From contig OZ241362.1 of the NCBI GenBank assembly GCA_965200315.1, forward strand, positions 4,672,001-4,736,000: 64,000 bases of DNA, read 5' to 3'. Source of the DNA: Candidatus Latescibacterota bacterium (GTDB lineage: Bacteria; Latescibacterota; UBA2968; UBA8231). The notes under the pieces were generated by a model. It was given only the letters and a program-made list of their open reading frames with translations, was not told the origin of the DNA and did no database searches. Made by a program: the position numbers and the translations under genes. Positions 51,253 to 64,000 of the stretch are shown here, piece by piece (the first letter of the stretch is position 1; each line of letters begins with the position of its first letter).

Positions 51253-51963
51253 ATGAGCGAGAACTACCATAGTTATCAGTTGCTATTGGCAAAAGCAGCC
51301 ACGCTTTACGAAAGGCATGGGGTTGGACGACCGGAGCCTTTACATACGAACTTGAGGAGGAAATATATGGACGCTTTGAAGAAACTTTGTGAGGCGGACA
51401 ACAACCTCGTTCTCGTCCGCCACTTGCATCATGCTGGCAATGAAGTAGTGTCAGACCTGCACGAGAAACTCTGGAACGAAATTAACTCTGAGCTGGAATT
51501 GCTGGAATCGAAAATTCCCGAATTTAGACAGCTTTTTAAATCTGTTCCAACAGACAAAAGCAATATAGTTCGCCGATACTATCAGTTGAGTGAAGCTAGC
51601 TCGCTCGAAATTGGAGAGGAAAAAGGCTATATATGGTTCGGGGTTGGTTGTTCCAAAGAGAAATCGTACGCCATGCTCGAGAGGGGATTGAAGCATCTGA
51701 GTGGTGAAAAAAACGAGTGGTATCCTTGGTATCGATATGCCGATCAAAGTCTAAACCTGTGTGACCCCACCCCAGAAAATATCAAGCTGCTGCTGAGTAC
51801 AAAAAAAAGGAAAGAGCTCGCGAGAAAGATCGTCCAAGACGTGAAAGAAGTTTTGGACGATCTTGAAGATATTGCTCTGGTGAATGCAATCAAAGAGGGA
51901 GAAAAGACGGGACTTGCTTCCAGAGAAGAGGTATTCAAAATCTTAAAAGGTATTGAGTGTTAA
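51253..51963 (+). CDS. Low-GC hypothetical protein, probably chimeric; antitoxin-like C-terminal tail
   Basis: AGGAG upstream and AT-rich composition. The tail LEDIALVNAIKEGEKTGLASREEVFKIL resembles RelE-associated antitoxins. Confidence 0.55.
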   Translation: MSENYHSYQLLLAKAATLYERHGVGRPEPLHTNLRRKYMDALKKLCEADNNLVLVRHLHHAGNEVVSDLHEKLWNEINSELELLESKIPEFRQLFKSVPTDKSNIVRRYYQLSEASSLEIGEEKGYIWFGVGCSKEKSYAMLERGLKHLSGEKNEWYPWYRYADQSLNLCDPTPENIKLLLSTKKRKELARKIVQDVKEVLDDLEDIALVNAIKEGEKTGLASREEVFKILKGIEC

Positions 51964-52036
51964 AATTTGAAAGTCGAATTTAGTAACAATTTCACCAATT
52001 TTTACCAACACTTTCCCTAGTCATCTCATCTACCAA

Positions 52037-53671
52037 ATGTTCAAGTTCCTCCTGCTTCTACTGCTCTTCTCCGCCCCCCTCTACGCCAACCCCCATTTCC
52101 ACGACGCCACCGAAGAAGCGGGTATCAGCTTCGTCCACGTCAACGGCGCGAATGGCCAGAAGTTTGTCATTGAAACGGTCGGCCCGGGCGGCGGCTTTTT
52201 TGATTACGATGGCGACGGCCGCCTCGACATTTATTTACTCAACGGAGCCGCTGTGCCCGGGACCGAATACGACCCCGCGCCGCAAAACGCGCTCTATCGC
52301 AATCGCGGCGACGGCGCGTTTGCCGATGTAACCGAGTACGCCGGCGTCGGCGACACCGGCTACGGCATGGGCTGCGCGGTCGGCGACACGGACAACGACG
52401 GCGACTTGGATTTGTACGTGACCAACTTTGGGGCCAATGTGCTGTATCGCAACGAGGGCAATGGAACGTTTGCAAACGCCACGGCCACCTCCCAAGTCGG
52501 CGACGAGGGTTGGGGGGCGAGTGCGGCGTTTGCCGACATCGACCGCGATGGCTTTGTCGATTTGTACGTGGGCAACTACCACAACTTCTCTTACGCCAAT
52601 CACCGCGTCTGCGCTGAGGGCGGTAGCGGGCTGCAACTCTACTGCGGCCCGGAGGCGTTCGACGGGGTGACCGACGTGTTGTATCGCAACGAAGGCGATG
52701 GCACGTTTGCCGACATCACGGTCGCAGCCGGGCTGGGCAGTGCCGAGGGCAAGGAGCTAGGCGTGGTCTTCGGCGACGTGGACCGCGACGGCGACCCAGA
52801 CCTCTATCTAGCCAACGACAAGACCTTGAACTTCTTGTATCTCAACGACGGCACCGGTCGCTTTGCCGAAGAAGCGCTATTGGCCGGCGTTGCCTACAAC
52901 GAGGATGGGGATGTCGAAGCGGGCATGGGCGTTGACATGGGCGATTACGACAACGACGGCGACTACGACCTTTTTGTCACCAACTTTCAATGGGAGACCA
53001 ATACCCTGTACAAGAACCTCGGCGACGGCACCTTTGTCGATGAAACCTTCCTCGCCGGGTTGGGCAAGGGCAGTATCGCCTATTTAGCGTGGGGTACGCG
53101 CTTTTTCGATGCCGACAACGATGGCGACCGCGATCTTTTTATCGCCAATGGCCACCTAGAAAGCGATGTTGAGCAATACGAGAACGCGACCTTCCCCCAG
53201 CGCAATCAGCTCTTTCTCAACCTCGGCGACGGCCGCTTTGAGGAATGCGCAGAGGACGGCGGTGGCCTGTCGTTGAAACGGGTCAGTCGCGGCGCGGCCT
53301 TTGGCGACTACGACGCCGATGGCGATATGGATGTGCTGGTGGCCAATGTCGCGGCTCAGCCCACCTTGCTGCGCAACGACGGCGCGAGCGGTCACTGGGT
53401 GCGCCTGCGGCTAGAGGGCCGCGACAGCAATCGCGCTGGTATCGGCGCTCGCGTTGAAATCACCAGCGGCGGGCAGGTGCAGACCGACGAAGTGCGCTCG
53501 GGTGCCAGCTTTCTCTCGCAGAGCGACCTGCGGCTGCACTTCGGGCTGGGAACGGCCCCCGCTGTCGAGCGCGTGGTCGTCTATTGGCCGAGCGGCCGGG
53601 TGGAGGCATACGCGGGCTTGGCCGTCAACCGCGAGCACCTATTAGTAGAAGGGGAGGGTAAGACGCGATGA
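52037..53671 (+). CDS. CRTAC1 family FG-GAP/ASPIC-UnbV secreted protein
   Basis: Signal peptide; DxDxDGxxD repeats; SFLSQSDLRLHFGLG. Confidence 0.9.
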   Translation: MFKFLLLLLLFSAPLYANPHFHDATEEAGISFVHVNGANGQKFVIETVGPGGGFFDYDGDGRLDIYLLNGAAVPGTEYDPAPQNALYRNRGDGAFADVTEYAGVGDTGYGMGCAVGDTDNDGDLDLYVTNFGANVLYRNEGNGTFANATATSQVGDEGWGASAAFADIDRDGFVDLYVGNYHNFSYANHRVCAEGGSGLQLYCGPEAFDGVTDVLYRNEGDGTFADITVAAGLGSAEGKELGVVFGDVDRDGDPDLYLANDKTLNFLYLNDGTGRFAEEALLAGVAYNEDGDVEAGMGVDMGDYDNDGDYDLFVTNFQWETNTLYKNLGDGTFVDETFLAGLGKGSIAYLAWGTRFFDADNDGDRDLFIANGHLESDVEQYENATFPQRNQLFLNLGDGRFEECAEDGGGLSLKRVSRGAAFGDYDADGDMDVLVANVAAQPTLLRNDGASGHWVRLRLEGRDSNRAGIGARVEITSGGQVQTDEVRSGASFLSQSDLRLHFGLGTAPAVERVVVYWPSGRVEAYAGLAVNREHLLVEGEGKTR

Positions 53672-55134
53672 GGATGTGGTCCGTAGTTCGCGATCAGTCG
53701 TCAGGGGTCAATCCCCGCACATCCACAACGGCTGGGCGGAGTGGGATAGCTGCTGGCCAGTGGCCCCTGCCGTTACTAGTCTGCCTCGCTCTGTGCGCCT
53801 GCGAGCCGGAAAGTCCGCCCGAAAAGGTGCGTCCCGGTGCCGCCATGGACGCCGAGCTGCTCTTTGTGCGCGGCACCGGGCTGGCCGCCGAGGGCCGCCA
53901 CACCGAGGCCATCGACGCCTACCAACAGGCGGCCTCGCTAGCACCCAACTCCGCCAAGGTCCACTACAACCTCGGCAACGCCTACGCGCGTCAGCTCGAT
54001 TATTCCCGGGCGATGGTGGCCTATCAGCGCGTATTGGCACTCGATTCGACGCACGTATCGGCGCGGCACAACCTCGCGGCCCTGTACGTCAAGCAGCTCA
54101 ACTACGCCCAAGCCATCCAAGAACACCGCCGGGTTCTCGCGTTGGCCCCCGGCCATCTGACGACCTACTACGACCTCAGCTACATCTACTTCTTGCGCGG
54201 CGAGTACGACGAGGTGGAAACGCTGCTGCAAGCAGGTCTGGACCGCGACTCGACCCATGCCTCCTTCTACCGGCTGCTGGGCCGGACGCGCCTGAAGGAA
54301 CTCGACTTTGAGCGGGCAGCGGCAGCCCTGACGTACGCGGTCGCGCTAGACAGCACGGATGCGGCCGCGTACGTCGATTTGGCGCAGGTGGAACTCAAGC
54401 GGCGCGAGTACGCGGCCGCTGAACGCGCCGCCCGCCGCGCTATTGCGCTCGACTCCCGGTCCAAGGAGGCGTATTTCGCGCTGGCCAATGCCCTCAAGCG
54501 GCTCGGCCGCCGCGAGGAGAGTACCGAAGTGCTGGCGCAGTTCCGGGCGCTCGACCAGCAGCTCGACAAAATCGACGATCAGCTACGGATGCTGGGCAAT
54601 GTGCCCGACGACCACGAGGCGCGGGCGCAATTGGGTCTGCTGTACACTGAGCAGGGCCGCTTGGCCGAAGCGGCTGAAGCGTATCGGCTGGCCGTGCGTC
54701 TCGCGCCGGACAGCCTGCGCTACCGCAACAACTTAGGCAACCTCTACCTGCGCTTGGGCCAGCTCGCCGAGGCCGTCGCCGAGTATCAAGCCGCGCTGGC
54801 CTTGGACTCAGCATACGCTAAGGCTCACTACAATTTGGGGCAGGCGTACATGCGCTTGCAGCGCTTTGACGAGGCCCTAGCCAGCCTCGCCGAAGCGCGT
54901 CGCTTAACCCCGCAAGACGAGGAGATTCATTACTTTTTGGGGCTGCTCCACGCGCAGGCTGGCGACTACGCCAAGGCCGCCGAGATGCTGGCATTTGCAG
55001 CGGAAGCCCGGCCGGACTGGCTCGACGCCCGGCAGAAATTAGCTGTGGCGTACTTGAAGTCGGGAAAGATAGAAGAGAGCAAGCGAGAGCTAGCGGCGAT
55101 TCAGCAGATGAAAGAGAGCGAACAGCATGAGTAA
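53668..55134 (+). CDS. TPR-repeat protein (putative lipoprotein)
   Basis: LCAC lipobox-like motif; many HYNLGNAY-type TPRs; ATGA overlap with the upstream gene. Confidence 0.85.
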   Translation: MRMWSVVRDQSSGVNPRTSTTAGRSGIAAGQWPLPLLVCLALCACEPESPPEKVRPGAAMDAELLFVRGTGLAAEGRHTEAIDAYQQAASLAPNSAKVHYNLGNAYARQLDYSRAMVAYQRVLALDSTHVSARHNLAALYVKQLNYAQAIQEHRRVLALAPGHLTTYYDLSYIYFLRGEYDEVETLLQAGLDRDSTHASFYRLLGRTRLKELDFERAAAALTYAVALDSTDAAAYVDLAQVELKRREYAAAERAARRAIALDSRSKEAYFALANALKRLGRREESTEVLAQFRALDQQLDKIDDQLRMLGNVPDDHEARAQLGLLYTEQGRLAEAAEAYRLAVRLAPDSLRYRNNLGNLYLRLGQLAEAVAEYQAALALDSAYAKAHYNLGQAYMRLQRFDEALASLAEARRLTPQDEEIHYFLGLLHAQAGDYAKAAEMLAFAAEARPDWLDARQKLAVAYLKSGKIEESKRELAAIQQMKESEQHE

Positions 55135-56692
55135 GCGTTGGATGGGAACCGTACTCTGCGCGGCGCTAGTCAGCTTGAGTGGTTGTGCCGAGGACGGACC
55201 GGCTGTAGCCACGGAAGATGCCGTCTTGGTGGAGGTGGGGCCAACGGCGATTCGGGTGGCGGATTACCGTCAGTTCACTACGCGAGTGGCAGCGGAATTG
55301 CGGGCGGAATATGGGGCTGAAAGACTGTTGGAGGCTATCGTTGAGCAGACGCTGCTGGTGCAGGAAGCCGAGCGGCGAGGCTTGGGGGCGAGCGCGGAGT
55401 TTTTGCAATGGCAGACGCAGGCGCAGGCGCGGCTGGTGCAGCAGGCCTTGTACGAGCGCGCCGGCATCGTCCAGCCCGAAGTAGCCGAGGAAGAGTTGCG
55501 GGCCTATTTCCAGCGCAGCCCCTATAACCGCCGAGTGCGCTTCAGTCTGCTGATGGTGCGCGAGCAAGAGCAGCTACCGGAGGTTTTGGCCGCGCTCGCC
55601 TCAGGAGCGGACTTTGAGGAACTGTCGCTGCGTCATTCTCAGGACTCGCGGATACTAGAGCGCCGCGCCGACATGGGCTATCACCGCTGGGGCGATACCA
55701 TGGCCTCGCACGCCGCTCTGACTGAAAGGGCCTTCTCCATGCAAGTCGGGGAGATCTCCGAGCCGATGCAGGTGGCCGATGGGTACTTTCTCATCAGGCT
55801 CACGGACACTCACCCGGTTAGCTTTGAGCAGGAGCGGGAGACCATTCAGCGCTGGGTGCTGCGGGAAAAGCTCGGGCGACAGCTCTTGGCTTATTACGAC
55901 ACCCTGCACGTGCGCTATGATGTGCGCTACGAGCCGGACGGGTTGGCGGGGTCGCCGGAAGCGGTCGTGGCTGCGTACGACGGCGGGGTGCTAACAATCG
56001 CGCAGGCCCGCGAGCTGCTGAAGGGTCAAGGCGAGGGCGAGAAGGTGCTGCGGCGCGAGGTCGGGCGGCGGGTGTTGGTCCCGCTCGAAATCGCGCGGCT
56101 CGCGCTCGCCGACGCCCCAAACCTGCAACGCGAACTAGAGCGGCTGCGGCAGACGCAGCTTGCGCGGTGCTTACAGGACGCGCTGCAAGCGCAGGTGCCA
56201 CCGCCCAATCCCAACGGCCTAAGCCTGTTTTACGAGGAGCACAAGCTCCGTTACACGGCACCGGCCGAGGTGGAGGTGCGCCGGCTCCTCGCCCGCGATG
56301 AGGCCGAGGGCACCGCCATCGCTGAGCAGATGCGGGCCGGCCGCGATACGACCGCGCTGGTGGACCGCTTCGTCAGCGTGATTTACGGCAGCGGTGCGCT
56401 GGAGGGCGACAATCCGGTCAGCCGCGCCCTGCGCGCCGACGAGGGAACCTTTCACGGCCCCTTTGCCACGGATAATGGTTATATTGTCTTACAGGTGTTG
56501 CGCCGCCGCCCGGACCGACTGCCGCCGCTAAGCGAAATCCGCGAGCAGGTGGAGGCGGATTGGGCGGCCGCGCAGCTCCAAGCCGCGGTCCAGGAGCTGG
56601 CCGCGTCTTTGCGCCAGCGCCGCGCCAACGAAATCCGCTTCAGCCCAGACGCTGTGGCACTAGCCCTGTTGGCTACTTCTCATGGCGAGTAA
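55127..56692 (+). CDS. SurA/PrsA-like PpiC foldase lipoprotein
   Basis: LSGC lipobox; GADFEELSLRHSQD..DMGY, GEISEPMQVADGYFLI and GPFATDNGY. Confidence 0.8.
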   Translation: MSKRWMGTVLCAALVSLSGCAEDGPAVATEDAVLVEVGPTAIRVADYRQFTTRVAAELRAEYGAERLLEAIVEQTLLVQEAERRGLGASAEFLQWQTQAQARLVQQALYERAGIVQPEVAEEELRAYFQRSPYNRRVRFSLLMVREQEQLPEVLAALASGADFEELSLRHSQDSRILERRADMGYHRWGDTMASHAALTERAFSMQVGEISEPMQVADGYFLIRLTDTHPVSFEQERETIQRWVLREKLGRQLLAYYDTLHVRYDVRYEPDGLAGSPEAVVAAYDGGVLTIAQARELLKGQGEGEKVLRREVGRRVLVPLEIARLALADAPNLQRELERLRQTQLARCLQDALQAQVPPPNPNGLSLFYEEHKLRYTAPAEVEVRRLLARDEAEGTAIAEQMRAGRDTTALVDRFVSVIYGSGALEGDNPVSRALRADEGTFHGPFATDNGYIVLQVLRRRPDRLPPLSEIREQVEADWAAAQLQAAVQELAASLRQRRANEIRFSPDAVALALLATSHGE

Positions 56693-57734
56693 TTCTATCG
56701 TTCTGCAACCTGCCTATATCGTCGATCGCCGGCAGGACTATATCTGGTTTGTGAGCCTACCCTTTGCCGCGGTTTGCTTTGCGCTCGTGTCCGGGCACTA
56801 CCTGCCGGGGGCGGCACTGGCGGCCATCGCCTTGTGGGTGACGATTCCGCATCACTTCGTCACTTGGTTGCGCGTGTATGGCTCGCCGGCGGAATTTGCC
56901 CGCTTTAAGGAACGCTTCATTCTCGGGCCGATAGTGTTGGTCGCCTTTGCCTACGGCCTGATCCAATGGGCGCCGTTGAGCTTGGTGTTGATCGTGACGT
57001 TGTGGGATCACCAGCACAGCTTGATGCAGCAATACGGCTTTGCGCGCGTGTACGACTTCAAGGCCAAGGCCGGTACGCCCGCCACTGCTAGGTTCGACTT
57101 GGCCTTCAATTGGATTTTTTTTGGCAACATGCTCGTGGTGTCGCCGCTGTTTTCCACGGTTTGGGTGCGTATGTTGCACGAGTGGCACCTGCCCATCAGC
57201 GCGGAAGCGGTAGAGGCGGTACACCTCGTCTCGTGGACCATTGCCATTGCCTACGGCCTGATCTACGTGGGACACATCGCCTATTGCGCCTATCGCGGCT
57301 TGGCGCTTAATCCCCTCAAATACGTCTTTCTGCTGTCGAGCTATTTCCTGTGGTACTTCACCAGTTTTACCACGGCCTATCTGCTCGTCTTTGCAGTGGC
57401 GCACCGGATCATGCACGGGATCCAGTATATCGTCATGGTGTATTTCTACAACCGCCACAAGGTCGAGCGCACGGGCGGCGACTCGGCCCTGCTGCGCTGC
57501 GTGGCGGGCAAGAGGGGCGTCAAGTTCTTTCTCTTGCTGTGCGCGGCCTACGCCGTCGTCTTTCACGCGCTGAGCGAGGGCTTGGTGCGCGACTTTGGCT
57601 TTGGCCTCGTCGGCTTCAACACCAATTTCGACCTCTTCAGCTATTCGCTGCTCAGTTCCTTTGCCCTGATCCACTACTACTATGACGCTTTTATATGGAA
57701 AGTGCGGAAAAAGGACGTGCAGGAGGGGCTGTAA
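56682..57734 (+). CDS. Polytopic membrane protein with multiple His motifs (candidate membrane metallo-enzyme)
   Basis: Motifs PHHFVTW, DHQHSLMQQYGF, AHRIMHGIQY and IHYYYDAFIW set within many TM helices. Confidence 0.7.
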   Translation: MASNSIVLQPAYIVDRRQDYIWFVSLPFAAVCFALVSGHYLPGAALAAIALWVTIPHHFVTWLRVYGSPAEFARFKERFILGPIVLVAFAYGLIQWAPLSLVLIVTLWDHQHSLMQQYGFARVYDFKAKAGTPATARFDLAFNWIFFGNMLVVSPLFSTVWVRMLHEWHLPISAEAVEAVHLVSWTIAIAYGLIYVGHIAYCAYRGLALNPLKYVFLLSSYFLWYFTSFTTAYLLVFAVAHRIMHGIQYIVMVYFYNRHKVERTGGDSALLRCVAGKRGVKFFLLLCAAYAVVFHALSEGLVRDFGFGLVGFNTNFDLFSYSLLSSFALIHYYYDAFIWKVRKKDVQEGL

Positions 57735-57765
57735 CGACCACTCATCAGGACTAGGAGATTGATCT

Positions 57766-59607
57766 ATGCTCGAAGTCGGCCTCGCCATTGCTGCATTCGC
57801 CGTCGCCGCGGCCGTGGTCCGCCAAGCCGCCGCCGATAAGTCCTACGACCTCTCCGACGGAGAGCGCCATCCGCACAAATGGGGCTACACGGACACCCGC
57901 TTTGAGTTCGACGGGCCGAAGACCGTGCGGGTTACGGGCAGCCGCTATCCGCTGGCCGGCTTCACTATGCCGCACTTCATCCCCTTTGTCGAAGAGATGC
58001 TCGAGGTGCCGATTGATCCCAACGAGATGGCCGTCGAAAAAGAGGTCCACGAGGTGCCGCCCTCGCGGGCAGACGCCAGCCTCGTCGCTGCTTGGCAAGA
58101 CGCGCTCGGTGCCGAGCGGGTGTCGCTCGACGACGCGGAGCGCCTGATCCACAGCCACGGCCAGCTCAGCGTCGATGAGGTCTATCGCCTGCTCTACGGC
58201 GATGCCTTGGAGCGAGTGGTCGATCTGGTGCTTTATCCAGAGAGCGAAGACCACGTGCGCACCATCGTGCGCCTCGCGTCCGAGCTCAGTATTTGCCTCG
58301 TGCCCTACGGCGGCGGCACCAACGTCAGCGGCGCACTGGCCTTGCCCGCCGGCGACGACCGCGTCTTTGCTTCGGTCGATATGCGGCGCATGAAGCGGAT
58401 CGTCGATCTCGACGAGGACAACCTCCAAGCCTGCATTGAAGCGGGGATTTCGGGCAAGGAGCTGGAGCGGGAACTCGCCGTTCGGGGCTACACGGTCGGC
58501 CACGACCCCGACAGCATCGAGCTTTCGACCCTAGGAGGCTGGATCGCGACCAATGCCAGCGGCATGAAGAAAAACCGCTACGGCAATATCGAAGACATCG
58601 TCCTCGAAGCGACCTTGGTGACGCCGACCGGCGCGGTGGAGACCTTGCACACCACGCCGCGCAACTCGACCGGCATCCAGCCACGCGGGCTGCTTTTTGG
58701 CTCGGAGGGCAACCTCGGCATCATCACTAAGGCCGTGCTCAAGATCCATCCCCAACCGGAAGTGCGCGAGTACGGTTCGCTGGTGTTCAAGTCCTTTGCC
58801 CAAGGCGTGGAATACTTGCAGGCCCTGCGCCAGACCGGGACTTTGCCGGCGAGTATCCGCTTGGTCAACAACCAAGAATTCCGCTTCGGTCAGGCCCTCA
58901 AGGCCGCGCCTTCTGCCTTGAAGCACCTCAAGGAAAAGGTGCAGAAGTTCGCCTTGTTGAAGGTGTTGGGCTTTGATCCGCTAAAAATGGTGGCGTGTAC
59001 GATCGCGATGGAGGGGACTCGCGCCGAGGTCTCGCATCAGAAGCGGACGATCTTCAAGCTAGCCAAGGCTCACGGCGGCAAGAGCGCCGGTGCCACCAAT
59101 GGCCAGCGCGGCTACATGCTGACCTTTGGGATCGCCTATATCCGCGACTTTTTGAACCAGTTCGATTTCTTGGGCGAGACCTTTGAGACCTCCGTGCCTT
59201 GGAGCCGCATTCACGACGTGACGCAGGCCGTGCAAGCCGAGCTGACCGCGCAATGTAGCGCCCACGGCGTGGCCGGGCGGCCCTACCTGTCGTACCGGGT
59301 GACGCAGACTTATCACACCGGGGTGTGCATTTACTTTACGATGGGGTTTTGCGGGCGGGGATTGGCGCATCCCATTGAGGTCTATCACAACATCGAGCAC
59401 GCGCTGCGGCAGACGATTTTGGACAACGGCGGCTCGCTATCCCACCACCACGGGGTAGGTAAAATCCGCCAGAGCTTCGTCCAGCACATCCAGAGCGACA
59501 ACAGCATTGAGGCCCTGCGCAAGACCAAAGAAGCGCTGGACCCCCAGAATATTTTCGGCATTCAGAATGGGATTTTTGGCAGTGCGTACCGGAAGCCTGA
59601 GCAATAA
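57766..59607 (+). CDS. agpS: Alkyl-dihydroxyacetonephosphate synthase (FAD-linked, eukaryote-like)
   Basis: KWGYTDTRF, TGSRYPLAG, PYGGGTNVS, GHDPDSIELSTLGGW, ASGMKKNRYGNIED, GSEGNLG, FETSVPW, RVTQTY..GVCIYF and GGSLSHHHGVGK; AGGAG SD. Confidence 0.88.
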   Translation: MLEVGLAIAAFAVAAAVVRQAAADKSYDLSDGERHPHKWGYTDTRFEFDGPKTVRVTGSRYPLAGFTMPHFIPFVEEMLEVPIDPNEMAVEKEVHEVPPSRADASLVAAWQDALGAERVSLDDAERLIHSHGQLSVDEVYRLLYGDALERVVDLVLYPESEDHVRTIVRLASELSICLVPYGGGTNVSGALALPAGDDRVFASVDMRRMKRIVDLDEDNLQACIEAGISGKELERELAVRGYTVGHDPDSIELSTLGGWIATNASGMKKNRYGNIEDIVLEATLVTPTGAVETLHTTPRNSTGIQPRGLLFGSEGNLGIITKAVLKIHPQPEVREYGSLVFKSFAQGVEYLQALRQTGTLPASIRLVNNQEFRFGQALKAAPSALKHLKEKVQKFALLKVLGFDPLKMVACTIAMEGTRAEVSHQKRTIFKLAKAHGGKSAGATNGQRGYMLTFGIAYIRDFLNQFDFLGETFETSVPWSRIHDVTQAVQAELTAQCSAHGVAGRPYLSYRVTQTYHTGVCIYFTMGFCGRGLAHPIEVYHNIEHALRQTILDNGGSLSHHHGVGKIRQSFVQHIQSDNSIEALRKTKEALDPQNIFGIQNGIFGSAYRKPEQ

Positions 59608-60400
59608 GACCATTGTTATCACCGGTGCTTCTGCGGGCTTGGGCGCGACGCTGGCGGTGGAGTGTGCCCAACAGGGAGCGCAGTTGGTTATCTTGGCGCG
59701 GAATGCCGAGCGGCTGGAGGCCGTTGCCCGCGAGTGCGAGCAGTTGGGAAGCGCGGTGCTGACCGTCGTTGGGGATGTCGCCGTCGCCGAGGACGGTAGG
59801 CGGCTGGTGGAGGCCGCGATAGAGCGGTTTGGGTGCCTAGACTACTTGGTTGCCAACGCCGGCGTCAGCATGTGGACTGCGTTTGCCGAGGTCGAGGATG
59901 TGGGGTTATTCCGCACGCTGGCGGAGGTGAATTACTTGGGGGCTGTGCATTGTGTGCATCCGGCGCTGCCGCATCTCAAAAAAAGCAAGGGCCTATTCGT
60001 GGTCATTTCGTCGATTCAGGGGCAGGTGGGGGTGCCGCTGCACACTGGGTACTCGGCGTCCAAACACGCGCTACAGGGGTTTTGCGATGCGCTGCGGATG
60101 GAGGTGGCCGAGAGCGGGGTGGGGGTTATGACCGTGCTCTTGCACTGGCTCAGGGGGACGGAGCTGCGGCAACGCGCACTGGGGAAAGACGGGAAGGCGT
60201 TGGGGGCTGCATCGCGCAAACACCGGGCGGAAGCGGTGAGCTTGGAGCAGGCGGCGCAGGCGATTGTGCGCGGGATGCAGAATCGGCGGCAGCGGCTCTA
60301 CGTGCCGAGGCGACTCAGGCTGCTGGCGGTGGTTCACGCCCTGTGGCCGTCGCTGGCCGAGTGGGTCGTCAAGGGGAAGGTGGCGCGGGAGGAAGGGTAG
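59567..60400 (+). CDS. Short-chain dehydrogenase/reductase, DHRS7/DHRS7B-like
   Basis: Motifs TGASAGLG, NAG, ISSIQG and YSASKHALQGF. The start (ATG 59567 or GTG 59582) overlaps the agpS end. Confidence 0.85.
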   Translation: MGFLAVRTGSLSNKTIVITGASAGLGATLAVECAQQGAQLVILARNAERLEAVARECEQLGSAVLTVVGDVAVAEDGRRLVEAAIERFGCLDYLVANAGVSMWTAFAEVEDVGLFRTLAEVNYLGAVHCVHPALPHLKKSKGLFVVISSIQGQVGVPLHTGYSASKHALQGFCDALRMEVAESGVGVMTVLLHWLRGTELRQRALGKDGKALGAASRKHRAEAVSLEQAAQAIVRGMQNRRQRLYVPRRLRLLAVVHALWPSLAEWVVKGKVAREEG

Positions 60401-60417
60401 GCCGGATTCACTAGATG

Positions 60418-60440
60418 ATCCGCAGATGTCCGCAGAATAG
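60418..60440. repeat. CGCAGA tandem repeat related to 2655-2687
   Basis: atccgcagatgtccgcagaatag. Confidence 0.55.
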
Positions 60441-60453
60441 CGAATTGTTCAAG

Positions 60454-63231
60454 TCATTGTGATCGTTCGACTTGCACCTGATCCTTCAGTTCGAGATCGT
60501 CGAGAACCTGCCGTAGCTCGGTTTCCATGTTGTGGGCAAACTGCGAGTGGACGCTCACGGTGAATTCTATGCCGACGCTGAGTTCTTCCCCGGTGCGCAG
60601 CTTGGGCAGCAGCTTGGTTCCCAGCCGGTTCCATACTTCGGGGGGCACGGTGCCGGTAAGCCGAAGCCTTGTCTTTTGATTGGCTGGGCTTGGTGCTGGG
60701 GCCGATTCTGGCTCTGGCTGGGGTGCTGGCTCTGGACTTGAAGCGGGTTCTGGTTGCGGCTGTGGCGCATGTTCAGGCGCGGCTTTGAGTGCTTTGGCTT
60801 TGGCCTTGGTCACCAAGAAGACGTTCTCCTCAAACGCCACTTCCGCCGATTCGACCGTCTCTTCATACCACAGCCGATTAAAGCCGCCATCGTCTTGGGC
60901 ACCCGAGGCTAGGCCGAACTCTCCCTTCGCCACGAACTCAACGACCTTCTGACTCAGGATCGCATCGGGATCGAGCAGCCGCGTCAATGCGCCGTTCAGA
61001 AAGCTCTGGCGCAGACTTGTAAGCGGCCAAGCGCCGGTGTCTTTGAACGCGGCCGGCCAGTGGCGGTCAATGTAACCCGCCCCCACGTTCTCGTTGAGCA
61101 GGGCCTCGCTCTTCAAGGCACTGATGATCCGCCCGCAGAGGGTTCCGCTGCTACTGCTGTGGCCGGCTCCGAGATCGATGATCTTGAGCTTGTGCTGTTC
61201 CTGAGCGTCGGCCAGTGCGACAAAGCGATAGCCGGCCCATACTTCGTCTTTGGCCGCTTCTTCTGCGTCCCGAACATGAGTCTGAATCTCGGCGCGATCA
61301 GCGCGATCGTATTCTGAGCCGAGGACGCCTTCGGACACCTCTTGATCTACACGCTTCCAAGCGAGCCATAGCTCGACCTTGTCGCGCAGCTCGCGCCCCG
61401 GTTTCCGCGCACACCAGACCAGCGCACCTCGGTACAGCCGTGGCGAAGTGCCCCGCTCCTGAGTCCAGCGGCCAATGCGCTCGACTATCTCTATCTGATT
61501 GCCGTTTATCCATTCCTCATCGGGGTCGAGGACGATTAGGGTGAGGCGCGGAGAATCTTGGACGGCGGTGCTGTCCTGCGGGAAGAATGTTCTCGGCAGG
61601 GTGGCGCCGCGTTTGAACTCTTCCTCGACCAGCTTGCGGATCGCTGGCTTGATTTCTGTAGCCTCGTCGAGCGAAGCCCGGCGGTCACTGACGACCTTGC
61701 GCAATGTCGCTTGATGGTGGATGCGGTAGCCGTCGGTGCCGACCTTGCGGATAAAGAACCCCGACCCTTCGAGAGCGGTCGCCGCATTGTCGATGGTCGT
61801 GGTATCGACGTCGGGTTCGCCGAGCGCAAAGCGCAATTCCGGCAAATGGGCCACCTTGTCCATCTGTCCGCCAGAGGACTCGAATAGGATGGCCGCACCC
61901 ACGCGACGGTGGATATCGCGCAGTGCTCCCGTGGCATCCGCATCGAGCGGTCTGGCACGGGCCGCTGTCCCCGCGAGATCGGCGTCAATCGCCGCATCGA
62001 GCCGCGACTCGCCCAACTGGCCTAAGACCACGGCGCGAAACTCGGGCACGGCCAACGGTGCCGATCCTAGCGTAATCAGCGGCTCGGTGCGCGCCTTGGT
62101 GAACTGCTCGCGTGCGGCCCAAGAAATCCATTGCGCCAGCATGGCCAGTGCCCCTCGGGTTTGCTGGAATTGGGCGAGCGCGCGCCACTTGCGCTGAAAG
62201 ACCGAAAGGGTCGCCGGATGAAAGGGATAGCACGCCTCGAATCGGTCCCGCAGAAATTCTTTTGCTTTGGCCGCGGTCGTCGCGGTATCGACCGCCAGCC
62301 ACTCGTCGGGCAAGCGAGCCGTGCGCTCACAACACCAGTCCGCGTAGGTTTTGGCGACGCGCTTGCGAATGCGCTCGTTGCCGAGGTCCTCAAACAGCCG
62401 TCGGCGCACTACCTCGCTAATCTCGGATTCGTCATTGGCGATTAAGTCGCGGGCGACGCGGCGCACTACCTTGGTGATTCGGTCTTGCCACTGCTGATCC
62501 CAATCGGTCATTTCGACTTGGCTGCGCGGCAGGCTGATGACGGCTGCGGCCTGCGTGGTGCCGGTGACGGCGACGGTCAGGTTTTGTAGGAAGGCGTGGA
62601 AGGGTTCGGCCATGGGGCGATGGCGGTTGACGAAGTTGAGGACTTCATCGAACAACAGCAGCACGGGCGCATCCGCAGCGGCGAATACATTGGCCAGTGC
62701 TTCGGTTCCCGGTGGCGTGGTTTTCGCGGCCGCGCCGAGTGCAGCGACGCCCTTATCGCCGGCCAGTTGGCGGGCTAAGTCGATCCAAGGCGTCTCTCGG
62801 CCTTCGGCAGGGTCATAGGCATTGCCGACGAAGACGCCGACGCGGGCCGGCGGAGTTTTGGCAATGCCCGCCTCGTTTAGGAGGTCTGTTACGCCGGGGA
62901 GCTGGGCGGCATCCGCGCCAGCATTGGCGATATGGTACAGGGAAGCTAGGGTATGCGTCTTGCCGCCGCCGAATTGGGTGACGAGCGTGAGGACTGGTGC
63001 TGTGTTCTCGGTCTTGCCGGAAAGACGCCGGAGGACCATGCCGGCGTGTTCCTTCAGGGCGCGGGTGAAGCAGGTGCGCGAGAAGAACTGTGCTGGATCG
63101 CGGTAATCTACGGGGGCGGTTTGGGCGACGATTTGCTCAAGGGCGATGGCGAACTCGTCCGGGCTGAACGAGCGGCCTTCGCGCACTTCTTTGCGGAGCG
63201 TTACGATTTTGTACCAAGGGTCGAGGGCCAT
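60454..63231 (-). CDS. DUF499-family AAA+ ATPase (BREX-related defence systems)
   Basis: Start MALDPWYK; Walker A QFGGGKTH; LLLFDEV; VVRRRLFE; YPFHP; FQQTRGAL; Pro/Glu linker before the C-terminal domain. Confidence 0.88.
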   Translation of the reverse strand: MALDPWYKIVTLRKEVREGRSFSPDEFAIALEQIVAQTAPVDYRDPAQFFSRTCFTRALKEHAGMVLRRLSGKTENTAPVLTLVTQFGGGKTHTLASLYHIANAGADAAQLPGVTDLLNEAGIAKTPPARVGVFVGNAYDPAEGRETPWIDLARQLAGDKGVAALGAAAKTTPPGTEALANVFAAADAPVLLLFDEVLNFVNRHRPMAEPFHAFLQNLTVAVTGTTQAAAVISLPRSQVEMTDWDQQWQDRITKVVRRVARDLIANDESEISEVVRRRLFEDLGNERIRKRVAKTYADWCCERTARLPDEWLAVDTATTAAKAKEFLRDRFEACYPFHPATLSVFQRKWRALAQFQQTRGALAMLAQWISWAAREQFTKARTEPLITLGSAPLAVPEFRAVVLGQLGESRLDAAIDADLAGTAARARPLDADATGALRDIHRRVGAAILFESSGGQMDKVAHLPELRFALGEPDVDTTTIDNAATALEGSGFFIRKVGTDGYRIHHQATLRKVVSDRRASLDEATEIKPAIRKLVEEEFKRGATLPRTFFPQDSTAVQDSPRLTLIVLDPDEEWINGNQIEIVERIGRWTQERGTSPRLYRGALVWCARKPGRELRDKVELWLAWKRVDQEVSEGVLGSEYDRADRAEIQTHVRDAEEAAKDEVWAGYRFVALADAQEQHKLKIIDLGAGHSSSSGTLCGRIISALKSEALLNENVGAGYIDRHWPAAFKDTGAWPLTSLRQSFLNGALTRLLDPDAILSQKVVEFVAKGEFGLASGAQDDGGFNRLWYEETVESAEVAFEENVFLVTKAKAKALKAAPEHAPQPQPEPASSPEPAPQPEPESAPAPSPANQKTRLRLTGTVPPEVWNRLGTKLLPKLRTGEELSVGIEFTVSVHSQFAHNMETELRQVLDDLELKDQVQVERSQ

Positions 63232-63248
63232 CGTTTCACCATGCTCGG

Positions 63249-63432
63249 TTATTTCGGGTCTGCTGCTAGGGATTCTAAGTGTTCCAGCCACGCGCCAAAC
63301 CTAGGACATTCGGTGCGCATTTTGTCCAGTCCAATAGCTGTTGCTAGTTCCAGTCCGTCAACCCCTTTGCTGTACCTAGGGATCACACCGGCGATCCGTT
63401 TGCCCCTCCACCACAATCGCCAGCCGAATCAC
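63249..63432 (-). pseudogene. Internally deleted DUF4276 (TOPRIM-like) gene
   Basis: GTGA overlap with the ATPase stop. The N-terminus MIRLAIVVEGQT is joined out of frame to the C-terminus RIAGVIPRYSKGVDG...IGLDKMRTECPRFGAWLEHLESL. Confidence 0.8.
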
Positions 63433-64000
63433 GGACGTCCCCCGAGGATATTCTTCTCCCACAGTTCCCCGGTTGAGTAGTGCTCAATCCATTGCTTATA
63501 GGCGTCGGGATCAAGTTTTCGGCACAGCGTCTGGCCTTCCTTCAGATCCATGACGAAAACTTGGTCGATGTCGAATGTGTCCACCAAGTGGGGAGACTGC
63601 GTTGCTGCGATGATCTGTCTTTCGTGGGAGCGCGAAGCTATCATGCCGCCGATTAGCCCGACGGCCGATGTATGCAAGCCCAGCTCGGGCTCATCCAACA
63701 GGACGACGTCCGGCAACATATCGGTCGGCATTCTGAGCAGCGTCACTAGGGCAAAGGTCCGCAGCGATCCGTCGGAGGTTAGGTGGGCACCGAACGTCTT
63801 GTTCGACCACTTGGCTTTCCAGCGCAGTAAGACCTTTCCGTATTCCTCTTCGATGGCGAAGCGGTCAAAACCCGGTAGGACCCGCCCTATCTGCCAACAG
63901 ATGTCCTCATACACCCTCACGTCTTCCTGCTCCAGCCGGTATAGCACGGCCGCCAAGTTGCCCCCGTCACTGCGAAGTTGGTGGTTGTCATGCACATCCC
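63429..64000 (-). CDS. ABC-type AAA_21 ATPase, 5'-partial
   Basis: GGNLAAVL, TSDGSLR signature, Walker B VLLDEPELGLH, ATQSP and YSTGELWEKNILGGRP. Confidence 0.88.
   Translation of the reverse strand, partial: DVHDNHQLRSDGGNLAAVLYRLEQEDVRVYEDICWQIGRVLPGFDRFAIEEEYGKVLLRWKAKWSNKTFGAHLTSDGSLRTFALVTLLRMPTDMLPDVVLLDEPELGLHTSAVGLIGGMIASRSHERQIIAATQSPHLVDTFDIDQVFVMDLKEGQTLCRKLDPDAYKQWIEHYSTGELWEKNILGGRP

What the first reader, a model, noticed from the sequence alone, without database searches (positions are those of the whole stretch)
56682..60400. Candidate eukaryote-type ether-lipid operon: animal-like AGPS plus a DHRS7B-like reductase
Seen: the 613-aa protein has AGPS-specific motifs along its whole length (WGY.D..F, TG.RYPL.G, GH.PDS.E.ST.GGW, ASGMKKN.YGNIED, FETS.PW, RVTQTY..G.CIYF, SLSHHHGVGK) and a hydrophobic N-terminal anchor. 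It overlaps an SDR with ISSIQG...Y.ASKHA.Q.F.D.LR.E. Known: animal peroxisomal ether-lipid synthesis runs GNPAT, then AGPS, then acyl/alkyl-DHAP reductase, an activity attributed to DHRS7B/PexRAP, whose motif I recall matching this SDR. Inference: two consecutive steps of that pathway are translationally coupled in a bacterium, for making ether lipids or remodelling host-derived ones. No GNPAT or fatty acyl-CoA reductase is present in the window.
Basis: partly seen in the sequence, partly recalled or inferred. Interest (0 to 1): 0.82.

Follow-up and report, generated by a model that had tools for sequence, protein, structure and literature searches.

The report
Bacterial ether-lipid synthase with paired reductase
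A Latescibacterota-type bacterium carries a genuine copy of the enzyme that makes the ether bond of ether lipids, joined to a dedicated reductase gene that probably does the next step; bacterial ether-lipid genes were already known, so the conserved pairing is the modest new point.

Summary
The gene at 57766-59607 (+) encodes a true alkyl-DHAP synthase (AGPS). It matches guinea-pig AGPS at E 8e-147, against 3e-25 for the best GlcD/D-lactate-dehydrogenase-type chain. The catalytic Arg, Tyr and HHH loop are kept, and there is a conserved hydrophobic N-terminus.

A classical SDR (59567-60400) overlaps the AGPS 3' end by 41 nt. This SDR forms a distinct group tied to AGPS:
- It lies just downstream in 69 of 73 informative related loci.
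- It is present in 36 of 38 AGPS-positive relatives and in 0 of 3 AGPS-negative ones.

The most likely role is NADPH acyl/alkyl-DHAP reductase. That is inferred, not shown. Specific kinship to animal DHRS7B could not be tested.

The genome also encodes a FAR-acyl-activating-acyltransferase fusion and a GPAT-fold acyltransferase elsewhere. In sister families FAR, that acyltransferase, AGPS and the SDR form one cluster. De novo synthesis of alkyl ether lipids is therefore plausible.

The 350-aa membrane protein at 56682-57734 belongs to the upstream ASPIC-TPR-PPIase cluster, not to this module.

Bacterial AGPS is known from Myxococcus, and agps in Latescibacterota was reported in a 2026 preprint. 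This is a new variant of a known kind, of moderate interest.

The parts
57766..59607 (+). AGPS (alkyl-dihydroxyacetonephosphate synthase, EC 2.5.1.26), 613 aa
   Evidence: Pfam FAD_binding_4 3.8e-38 and FAD-oxidase_C 3.2e-35. phmmer against PDB: guinea-pig AGPS 4bby E 8.3e-147 over query 37-601, Dictyostelium AGPS 2uuu 1.7e-82, next best (GlcD-like 3pm9) 2.9e-25. R365, T513, Y523 and H560-H562 align with guinea-pig R419, T568, Y578 and H615-617 and are invariant in 14 homologues.
57766..57825 (+). Hydrophobic N-terminal segment of AGPS (about residues 1-20), followed by basic residues; probable membrane anchor
   Evidence: Highest Kyte-Doolittle 15-residue window of the protein (2.67 at residue 4). 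All 14 aligned homologues (63-80% identical) have a hydrophobic stretch of varying sequence followed by R/K.
59567..60400 (+). Classical short-chain dehydrogenase/reductase, 277 aa; proposed NADPH acyl/alkyl-DHAP reductase
   Evidence: Pfam adh_short 5.3e-47. NCBIfam NF004825 (PRK06181) 288 bits against a cut-off of 215. TGASAGLG, NAG and S...YSASK are seen in the sequence. Downstream of AGPS in 69 of 73 informative loci. One hit per genome at E<=1e-84, with paralogues at E>=1e-26.
59567..59607 (+). 41-nt overlap of the AGPS 3' end and the SDR 5' end (candidate translational coupling)
   Evidence: Sequence: ATG at 59567 is in the SDR frame and the AGPS TAA is at 59605-59607. The overlap is typical of the genus. 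In more distant loci the genes are only adjacent, for example 12 nt apart in L064.
56682..57734 (+). Neighbour, judged NOT part of the module: 350-aa polytopic membrane protein of an unnamed family (here 'MEM350'), last gene of the ASPIC-TPR-PPIase-MEM350 cluster
   Evidence: No Pfam, NCBIfam or PDB sequence match. AF2 model pLDDT 85.4, no fold match. Upstream of AGPS in 24 of 26 close loci but in 0 of 54 more distant AGPS loci. Not found in 5 AGPS-bearing relatives. Follows a PPIase homologue in 17 of 20 metagenome loci whether or not AGPS is there.

Best explanation
The two overlapping genes form a dedicated ether-lipid module. AGPS is held at the membrane by an N-terminal hydrophobic segment. 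It uses bound FAD to exchange the acyl chain of 1-acyl-DHAP for a fatty alcohol, giving 1-O-alkyl-DHAP. The SDR encoded immediately after it, and overlapping it, reduces the C2 keto group with NADPH to give 1-O-alkyl-sn-glycerol-3-phosphate, which enters ordinary phospholipid synthesis. Fatty alcohol and acyl-DHAP would come from genes elsewhere in this genome: a 1403-aa FAR / AMP-binding / acyltransferase fusion and a 646-aa GPAT-fold acyltransferase. The products would be plasmanyl (alkyl) lipids, not plasmalogens. Shown: the identity of AGPS, and the linkage and co-occurrence of the SDR. Inferred: the SDR's substrate, the membrane anchoring, the source of substrates and the lipid products.
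For: AGPS identity rests: E 8e-147 to solved AGPS against 3e-25 to GlcD-type enzymes, with catalytic residues conserved.

SDR linkage: among 80 AGPS loci from species-representative genomes, the SDR lies on the same strand within 350 nt or overlapping in 60 and within 351-2000 nt in 9. Seven loci lack enough downstream flank. Four have at least 1200 nt of flank and no SDR.

The SDR is a distinct group. There is one hit at E 1e-84 to 1e-92 per genome, and it sits next to AGPS in G040, G032, G029 and G036, while 33-59 other SDR candidates per genome score 1e-26 or worse.

Co-occurrence in 41 related genomes: 38 have AGPS and 36 of those have the SDR. None of the 3 without AGPS has it.

In 24 of the 54 loci with AGPS at 63-70% identity the order is FAR, 640-790-aa acyltransferase, AGPS, SDR. 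The acyltransferase carries HX4D/E, GT and PxxxRG motifs, and its model matches PlsC at E 8e-5, prob 1.0, and squash GPAT at prob 0.99.

The own genome holds the FAR-AMP-binding-acyltransferase fusion and the acyltransferase homologue at 47% identity.

Pathway logic from established knowledge: alkyl-DHAP must be reduced before use (EC 1.1.1.101; passages of PMC7517302, PMC13200781, PMC9131029). The Myxococcus AGPS operon also carries a reductase-type gene (10.1101/2025.10.10.681575).

Contigs 99% or more identical to the window, bridging PPIase-MEM350-AGPS-SDR, occur in four metatranscriptomic runs of one study. This shows presence in RNA libraries only.
Against: No assay exists, and no DHRS7B, Ayr1 or Myxococcus sequence could be compared.

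The SDR's similarity to solved enzymes is generic: 11beta-HSD1 100 bits, clavaldehyde dehydrogenase 98 bits. Public names are generic.

Linkage is not universal:
- Four loci with adequate flank lack the SDR (L095, L097, L099, L109).
- In G025 the SDR lies about 3.9 Mb from AGPS.
- G024 and G028 have AGPS but no SDR hit at E<=1e-40. In G024 only 61 of 80 candidates were scored.
- G016's copy has an in-frame TGA.

The GPAT-fold acyltransferase is present in all 41 of 41 relatives, including the 3 without AGPS, so it is not specific to this pathway.

The PF10520 (CarF/PEDS1) search found nothing, but its control also matched in no genome, so absence of plasmalogen synthesis is not established.

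The RNA-library contigs also cover the flanking and opposite-strand genes, so DNA carry-over is not excluded.
Confidence: 0.65

Rival explanations
1. The SDR works with AGPS but at another step. It might reduce fatty aldehyde to fatty alcohol for the AGPS reaction, or act on another lipid keto or hydroxy intermediate, with alkyl-DHAP reduced by a different enzyme.
For: The SDR's similarity to solved enzymes is generic. A second SDR (364 aa) lies two genes downstream of the FAR-AMP-binding-acyltransferase fusion. In Myxococcus the operon reductase belongs to a different SDR type, an NAD-dependent epimerase/dehydratase (10.1101/2025.10.10.681575, passages).
Against: The FAR proteins here have NAD_binding_4 plus the Sterile domain. 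By recalled knowledge this is the alcohol-forming type, which needs no separate aldehyde reductase. The SDR tracks AGPS, not FAR: it stays next to AGPS in the genus where FAR is 375 kb away.
Confidence: 0.2
2. The pair salvages or remodels ether-lipid precursors taken from a host or the environment, rather than serving de novo synthesis.
For: AGPS and SDR stand apart from FAR and the acyltransferase in this genus.
Against: The genome encodes its own FAR and two acyltransferase candidates. Sister families keep all four genes in one cluster, which fits a self-contained pathway. No uptake gene is linked.
Confidence: 0.1
3. The 350-aa membrane protein upstream is a third member of the module, for example a histidine-motif lipid desaturase or hydroxylase acting on the ether lipid, analogous to PEDS1.
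For: It is co-directional, with only a 31-nt gap to AGPS. Invariant His/Asp/Gln motifs are PHH, WDHQH, HRxMHGxQY and HYYxD. It lies upstream of AGPS in 24 of 26 close loci.
Against: It is absent from 0 of 54 more distant AGPS loci. It was not found in 5 AGPS-bearing relatives. In loci with 65-77% identical copies and at least 6 kb downstream there is no AGPS (L117, L119, L122, L123, L127, L130). It always follows PPIase, and 8 of 10 longer relatives scanned fuse the domain to TPR repeats, which ties it to the upstream TPR/PPIase genes. There is no fold match to desaturases.
Confidence: 0.07
4. The 613-aa protein is a GlcD/D-lactate-dehydrogenase-type oxidase and not an AGPS.
For: It shares the VAO-type FAD domains. 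NCBI records name close homologues only 'FAD-binding oxidoreductase'.
Against: The score is 493 bits to AGPS against 92 bits to the best oxidase. The AGPS-only N-terminal region (query 37-150) is aligned, and the AGPS catalytic Tyr and HHH loop are kept. It is far below the NCBIfam cut-offs for GlcD (166 against 568). JGI names homologues AGPS.
Confidence: 0.03

Closest known systems
Mammalian peroxisomal AGPS (guinea-pig structures 4bby and others)
   Same: Alignment runs nearly end to end (query 37-601 to chain 94-656, E 8e-147). The two FAD domains are the same. The Arg, Tyr and HHH-loop residues are conserved.
   Different: There is no peroxisomal targeting region. Instead it has a short hydrophobic N-terminus conserved in character among bacterial relatives. 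No tree with eukaryotic sequences could be built.
Myxococcus xanthus MXAN_1676-1675-1674 operon (AGPS, FAR-acyltransferase fusion, NAD-dependent epimerase/dehydratase)
   Same: It is a bacterial AGPS encoded beside a nucleotide-dependent reductase-type gene, with FAR and acyltransferase functions in the same genome (10.1101/2025.10.10.681575 and PMC9131029, passages).
   Different: The partner here is a classical SDR (adh_short), not the epimerase/dehydratase type. In this genome FAR and the acyltransferase are unlinked, and the FAR fusion also carries an AMP-binding domain. In sister families FAR and the acyltransferase are separate genes. No Myxococcus sequence was compared directly.
DHRS7B / PexRAP and DHRS7 (animal acyl/alkyl-DHAP reductases, EC 1.1.1.101)
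   Same: It is a classical SDR with TGxxxGxG and YxxxK, and the proposed substrate and cofactor are the same. Its best solved relatives (HSD11B1, HSD17B4-type) are the families said to lie close to the DHRS7 subfamily (PMC13200781, passage). By my recall only, DHRS7B shares the ISSIQG / Y.ASKHA.Q.F.D.LR.E string.
   Different: It has no N-terminal transmembrane domain, which DHRS7B has (PMC7517302, passages); only 13 residues precede the first Rossmann strand. Specific orthology is untested.
agps and elbD homologues reported in Latescibacterota genomes assembled from metagenomes (bioRxiv 10.64898/2026.06.23.733905)
   Same: It is the same phylum and the same two marker genes. The 1403-aa FAR-AMP-binding-acyltransferase protein here is probably what that study calls a standalone elbD hit.
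   Different: The passages I read do not mention the SDR partner, the FAR-acyltransferase-AGPS-SDR cluster or the GPAT-fold acyltransferase. The word 'SDR' occurs 0 times in the main text. Its supplementary tables could not be opened.

Membership tests
AGPS (EC 2.5.1.26) | VAO/PCMH-type FAD-binding domain plus FAD-linked oxidase C-terminal domain | tested here: met
   PF01565 3.8e-38 and PF02913 3.2e-35.
AGPS (EC 2.5.1.26) | Full-length similarity to experimentally defined AGPS, clearly above other VAO-family oxidases | tested here: met
   4bby 493 bits and 2uuu 281 bits, against 92 bits for the best non-AGPS chain.
AGPS (EC 2.5.1.26) | Catalytic Tyr (Dictyostelium Y508 / guinea-pig Y578), Arg (R352 / R419) and the HHH loop | tested here: met
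   Y523, R365 and H560-562 align to these residues and are invariant in 14 homologues. The roles of Y508 and R352 come from PMC3509576 (passages). The guinea-pig numbering of their roles is recalled. Chain 4bca differs from 4bby at exactly this Tyr.
AGPS (EC 2.5.1.26) | Acyl-DHAP / fatty alcohol exchange activity | not testable with these tools
   Needs an enzyme assay.
Acyl/alkyl-DHAP reductase of the DHRS7B type | Classical SDR with TGxxxGxG cofactor motif and Ser-Tyr-Lys catalytic residues | tested here: met
   adh_short 5.3e-47. TGASAGLG, ISSIQG and YSASK are in the sequence. An Arg after the second strand (LARN) suggests NADP(H), by recalled SDR rules.
Acyl/alkyl-DHAP reductase of the DHRS7B type | Specific grouping with the DHRS7/7B/7C subfamily rather than other SDRs | tested here: inconclusive
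   No DHRS7B sequence was obtainable. Best PDB hits are HSD11B1 1.2e-27, an HSD17B4-type enzyme 2.3e-27 and clavaldehyde dehydrogenase 6.2e-27. Source names and Atlas clusters are generic.
Acyl/alkyl-DHAP reductase of the DHRS7B type | N-terminal transmembrane domain (PMC7517302) | tested here: not met
   The protein starts 13 residues before the first Rossmann strand.
Acyl/alkyl-DHAP reductase of the DHRS7B type | NADPH-dependent reduction of acyl- or alkyl-DHAP | not testable with these tools
   Needs an enzyme assay. Only gene linkage and co-occurrence support it.
Myxococcus-type AGPS operon | AGPS adjacent to a FAR-acyltransferase fusion and an NAD-dependent epimerase/dehydratase gene | tested here: not met
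   Here AGPS is followed by a classical SDR. The FAR-containing fusion lies about 375 kb away.
Plasmalogen (vinyl-ether) pathway | CarF/PEDS1 desaturase (PF10520) in the genome | tested here: inconclusive
   No match in the own genome, but the control search also matched in none of 14 genomes.

The most novel reading that the evidence does not exclude
The AGPS-coupled SDR is the true bacterial counterpart, possibly the orthologue, of animal DHRS7B. Latescibacterota would then encode all four animal-type steps (FAR, DHAP acyltransferase, AGPS, acyl/alkyl-DHAP reductase), and as one cluster in some families. That would give a second bacterial lineage besides Myxococcota to weigh as a source or sister of the eukaryotic ether-lipid pathway. 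It would also provide the first candidate for this reductase step in bacteria.
Probability: 0.25. Interest if true: 0.65.

Novelty: new variant of a known kind. Interest (0 to 1): 0.42.

Why it matters
Ether lipids blur the bacterial/archaeal/eukaryotic 'lipid divide', and the origin of the animal pathway is under active debate. A 2025-26 study credits Myxococcota but found AGPS phylogenetically uninformative. The reductase step after AGPS has no assigned bacterial enzyme in the papers I could search. A conserved AGPS-SDR pair, and a four-gene FAR-acyltransferase-AGPS-SDR cluster in an uncultured phylum, give a concrete and cheap candidate to test. They also give a genomic marker for predicting producers of alkyl-glycerol lipids in environmental samples. 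The AGPS gene itself is not news.

Tried and rejected
GlcD-type oxidase reading: rejected.

MEM350 as part of the module: rejected on gene context. Its model (pLDDT 85.4, pTM 0.83) found no solved fold. The best Foldseek E was 0.28. The Foldseek-independent library was unavailable.

Direct test of DHRS7B likeness: not possible. No tool returned a DHRS7B, Ayr1 or Myxococcus sequence, and I did not type one from memory. The Atlas and source names gave only generic SDR labels.

AGPS tree with eukaryotes: not done. The 120 listed homologues were all bacterial. The genome-contig scan kept only the best 80 loci, all at least 63% identical, of 567 confirmed. Linkage was therefore tested mainly within Latescibacterota-labelled genomes plus single loci labelled Trueperaceae, Poribacteria, Planctomycetota and Gammaproteobacteria.

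Promoter and terminator scan: uninformative. It found 2 and 7 sites against 2.1 and 8.6 expected.

Acyltransferase: plain Pfam gave only PF01553 at E 0.072 and no PDB sequence hit. BLASTP to the fusion's acyltransferase domain gave E 0.012.

Parts of the laid stretch with lower depth in X2 and X4 are not evidence of anything.

Literature: searches found no paper describing an AGPS-SDR pair in bacteria. The library is partial and supplements are closed. Supplementary table 2 of 10.64898/2026.06.23.733905 may list these very loci.


Full report
WHAT IS THERE. Window 52037-60400 holds six co-directional, tightly packed genes on the + strand:
- an FG-GAP/ASPIC protein (52037-53671);
- a TPR protein (53668-55134);
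- a SurA-like PPIase (55127-56692);
- a 350-aa membrane protein, here 'MEM350' (56682-57734);
- after a 31-nt gap, a 613-aa FAD protein (57766-59607);
- an SDR whose frame is open from 59507.

A DUF499 gene converges from the other strand (60454-63291). The window is G000:C1:4672001-4736000 of a single-contig 5.36-Mb genome. Names attached to near-identical proteins and loci are Latescibacterota, with some labelled Gemmatimonadota.

THE 613-AA PROTEIN IS AGPS. Against all PDB chains it matches guinea-pig AGPS at E 8.3e-147 (493 bits, query 37-601 to chain 94-656) and Dictyostelium AGPS at 1.7e-82. The next hits, GlcD-, D-lactate- and D-2-hydroxyglutarate-dehydrogenase-type, start at 2.9e-25 and cover only the FAD domain. 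It is far below the NCBIfam cut-offs for GlcD (166 bits against 568).

In the printed alignment R365, T513, Y523 and H560-H562 stand opposite guinea-pig R419, T568, Y578 and H615-H617. All are invariant in 14 homologues of 63-80% identity. The catalytic roles of the Dictyostelium equivalents Y508 and R352, and the FAD-adduct mechanism, are described in PMC3509576 (passages read). JGI names many homologues 'alkyldihydroxyacetonephosphate synthase'.

The N-terminal 18-20 residues are the most hydrophobic stretch of the protein. In all 14 aligned homologues a hydrophobic segment of differing sequence is followed by Arg or Lys. This fits a membrane anchor with the enzyme on the cytoplasmic side, which is an inference. 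I did not compute percent identity to the animal enzyme, and I could not build a tree with eukaryotes.

THE SDR AND ITS LINK TO AGPS. The likely start is ATG 59567, because genus relatives align from residue 1 of that version. This gives a 41-nt overlap with the AGPS stop. Every other plausible start also overlaps. The protein is a classical SDR: adh_short 5.3e-47 and NF004825/PRK06181 at 288 bits. It carries TGASAGLG, NAG, Ser and YSASK.

Linkage was tested in three ways.

(a) In 80 AGPS loci from species-representative genomes, the SDR lies downstream on the same strand:
- within 350 nt or overlapping in 60;
- at 351-2000 nt in 9;
- 7 loci end too soon to tell;
- 4 have at least 1200 nt of flank and no SDR (L095, L097, L099, L109).
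That is 69 of 73 informative loci. They include loci labelled Trueperaceae (L092), Poribacteria (L100) and Planctomycetota (L105).

(b) Genome-wide searches show a distinct group. There is one hit per genome at E 1e-84 to 1e-92, while the other 33-59 SDR candidates score 1e-26 or worse. That single hit sits beside AGPS in G040, G032, G029 and G036, but about 3.9 Mb away in G025.

(c) Across 41 related genomes, 38 have AGPS, and 36 of these have the SDR at E<=1e-40. The 3 without AGPS (G026, G030, G038) have none. The two exceptions are:
- G028, whose AGPS is only 45% identical;
- G024, where only 61 of 80 candidates were scored and the AGPS contig ends about 1.2 kb downstream.
Related genomes are not independent, so these counts describe and do not test. 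G016's copy has an in-frame TGA.

THE REST OF THE PATHWAY. The window has no FAR or acyltransferase, but the genome does. A 1403-aa protein at G000:C1:4351097-4355308 (-) combines four Pfam domains: NAD_binding_4 (2.6e-59), Sterile, AMP-binding (5e-64) and Acyltransferase (7.6e-19).

In 24 of the 54 loci whose AGPS is 63-70% identical, the order is FAR (567 aa in L064), a 640-790-aa protein, AGPS, SDR. Twelve of the other 30 lack upstream flank. That middle protein misses Pfam thresholds (PF01553 E 0.072). It has conserved HX4D/E, Y(P/G)xGT and (I/V)P(I/L/V)xxRG motifs. Its model (pLDDT 82.8, pTM 0.87) matches PlsC (5kym, E 8e-5, prob 1.00) and squash GPAT (1k30, prob 0.99).

The window's genome has a 47%-identical copy standing alone at G000:C1:3405213-3407150. 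It occurs in 41 of 41 relatives, including the three without AGPS. It may therefore be a general glycerolipid acyltransferase that also supplies acyl-DHAP.

PF10520 (CarF/PEDS1) was not found, but that search's control matched in no genome. 'Alkyl, not vinyl-ether' is therefore only a lean.

MEM350 IS A NEIGHBOUR, NOT A MEMBER. It has no Pfam, NCBIfam or PDB sequence match, and all named homologues are 'hypothetical'. Thirty homologues share invariant PHH, WDHQH..MQQ.G, HR.MHG.QY and HYY.D..WK motifs. The model is confident (pLDDT 85.4) but matches no solved fold (best E 0.28).

A profile search found 1595 relatives at E<=1e-3. Of 10 longer ones scanned, 8 carry C-terminal TPR repeats.

Gene context separates it from AGPS:
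- It precedes AGPS in 24 of the 26 loci with AGPS at least 77% identical and in 0 of the 54 others.
- It was not found in five AGPS-bearing relatives.
- Among the 20 metagenome loci with copies 65-96% identical, a PPIase homologue lies directly upstream in 17, and the other three have almost no upstream flank.
- In those 20, AGPS follows in only 6. Six loci with at least 6 kb downstream have none.
- In the 60 loci with copies under 65% identical, neither PPIase, AGPS nor SDR appears.
So the AGPS-SDR pair has landed behind an ASPIC-TPR-PPIase-MEM350 cluster in this genus only.

EXPRESSION. Four metatranscriptomic runs of one study hold 82-90% of the sampled words. Their contigs lie on the window with few differences and bridge the gene junctions:
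- 54952-59940 (7 differences);
- 55578-60144;
- 55427-59480;
- 56315-59297.
The flanks and the opposite-strand gene are also covered. These are contigs and not reads, so this shows presence in RNA libraries, not transcription or one transcript.

COMPARISON WITH WHAT IS KNOWN. In Myxococcus xanthus, AGPS (MXAN_1676) is experimentally tied to ether lipids. It sits in an operon with a FAR-acyltransferase fusion and an NAD-dependent epimerase/dehydratase gene. GTDB holds so many AGPS hits that the authors had to cluster them, and AGPS gave too little phylogenetic signal (10.1101/2025.10.10.681575, also PMC13012113; outline, passages and section 11 read. PMC9131029; passages).

A 2026 preprint reports agps and standalone elbD homologues in Latescibacterota genomes assembled from metagenomes. 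It says this phylum had not been linked to ether lipids before. 'SDR' occurs 0 times in its main text (10.64898/2026.06.23.733905; outline and passages).

DHRS7B and DHRS7 are the animal acyl/alkyl-DHAP reductases. DHRS7B has an N-terminal membrane domain, and its subfamily lies near HSD11B1 and HSD17B4 (PMC13200781 and PMC7517302; passages). The window SDR's best solved relatives are exactly those two families, but by a margin too small to count. It also lacks the membrane domain.

Searches found no paper describing a bacterial AGPS-SDR pair. The library is partial and supplements were closed.

VERDICT. The SDR is a dedicated, conserved AGPS partner. Its role as the acyl/alkyl-DHAP reductase is the best-supported inference (about 0.65) but is untested. 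Specific DHRS7B orthology is open (about 0.25). It is a new variant of a known bacterial system: it has a different reductase type and gene order from Myxococcus and extends a published preprint, but it is not categorically new.

Noticed in passing
window 56682-57734 (+); alignment A1; model: A widespread unnamed membrane-protein family (1595 relatives at E<=1e-3) with invariant PHH, WDHQH, HRxMHGxQY and HYYxD motifs. It has no Pfam model and no solved fold match. Relatives are often fused to C-terminal TPR repeats. Here it is the last gene of a conserved ASPIC-TPR-PPIase-MEM350 cluster (52037-57734).
   Followed up: partly
G000:C1:3405213-3407150 (-) = L192:8211-10151; L064:7846-9867: A 640-790-aa protein family below Pfam thresholds, with HX4D/E acyltransferase motifs and a PlsC/GPAT-like predicted fold. 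It is present in 41 of 41 related genomes and lies directly upstream of AGPS in 24 loci. It may be this lineage's main glycerolipid (G3P/DHAP) acyltransferase.
   Followed up: partly
G000:C1:4351097-4355308 (-) = L030:8098-12309: A 1403-aa fusion of FAR (NAD_binding_4 plus Sterile), an AMP-binding enzyme and an acyltransferase. No carrier-protein domain was detected. It is followed by Lgt, an Old-Yellow-Enzyme-like protein and a 364-aa SDR. It is probably the 'standalone elbD' type reported for this phylum.
   Followed up: partly
window 60454-63291 (-) and 63429-63998 (-): A 945-aa DUF499 protein converges on the SDR gene. Next to it, an ORF that runs off the window end shows an ABC/AAA-type ATPase signature (LLDEPELGLH). 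The pair could be a defence or mobile-element pair.
   Followed up: no
G016:C9:75697-76446; G025:C1:4716039-4716827: In one relative the AGPS-linked SDR carries an in-frame TGA. In another it lies about 3.9 Mb away from AGPS. The pairing is therefore not absolute.
   Followed up: no
L030:383-5116 and L192:10419-14738: Restriction-modification and AbiEii-like ATPase genes flank both unlinked lipid genes: an MmeI-type enzyme near the FAR fusion, and DNA methylases near the acyltransferase. This suggests these regions are rearrangement-prone.
   Followed up: no
window 51500-61500, runs X1-X4: Near-identical contigs occur in four metatranscriptomic libraries of one study. Contig word depth over about 55-60 kb is roughly twice that of the flanks. 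Several minor contigs branch off at 57559 and 58623, so related strains are present.
   Followed up: partly
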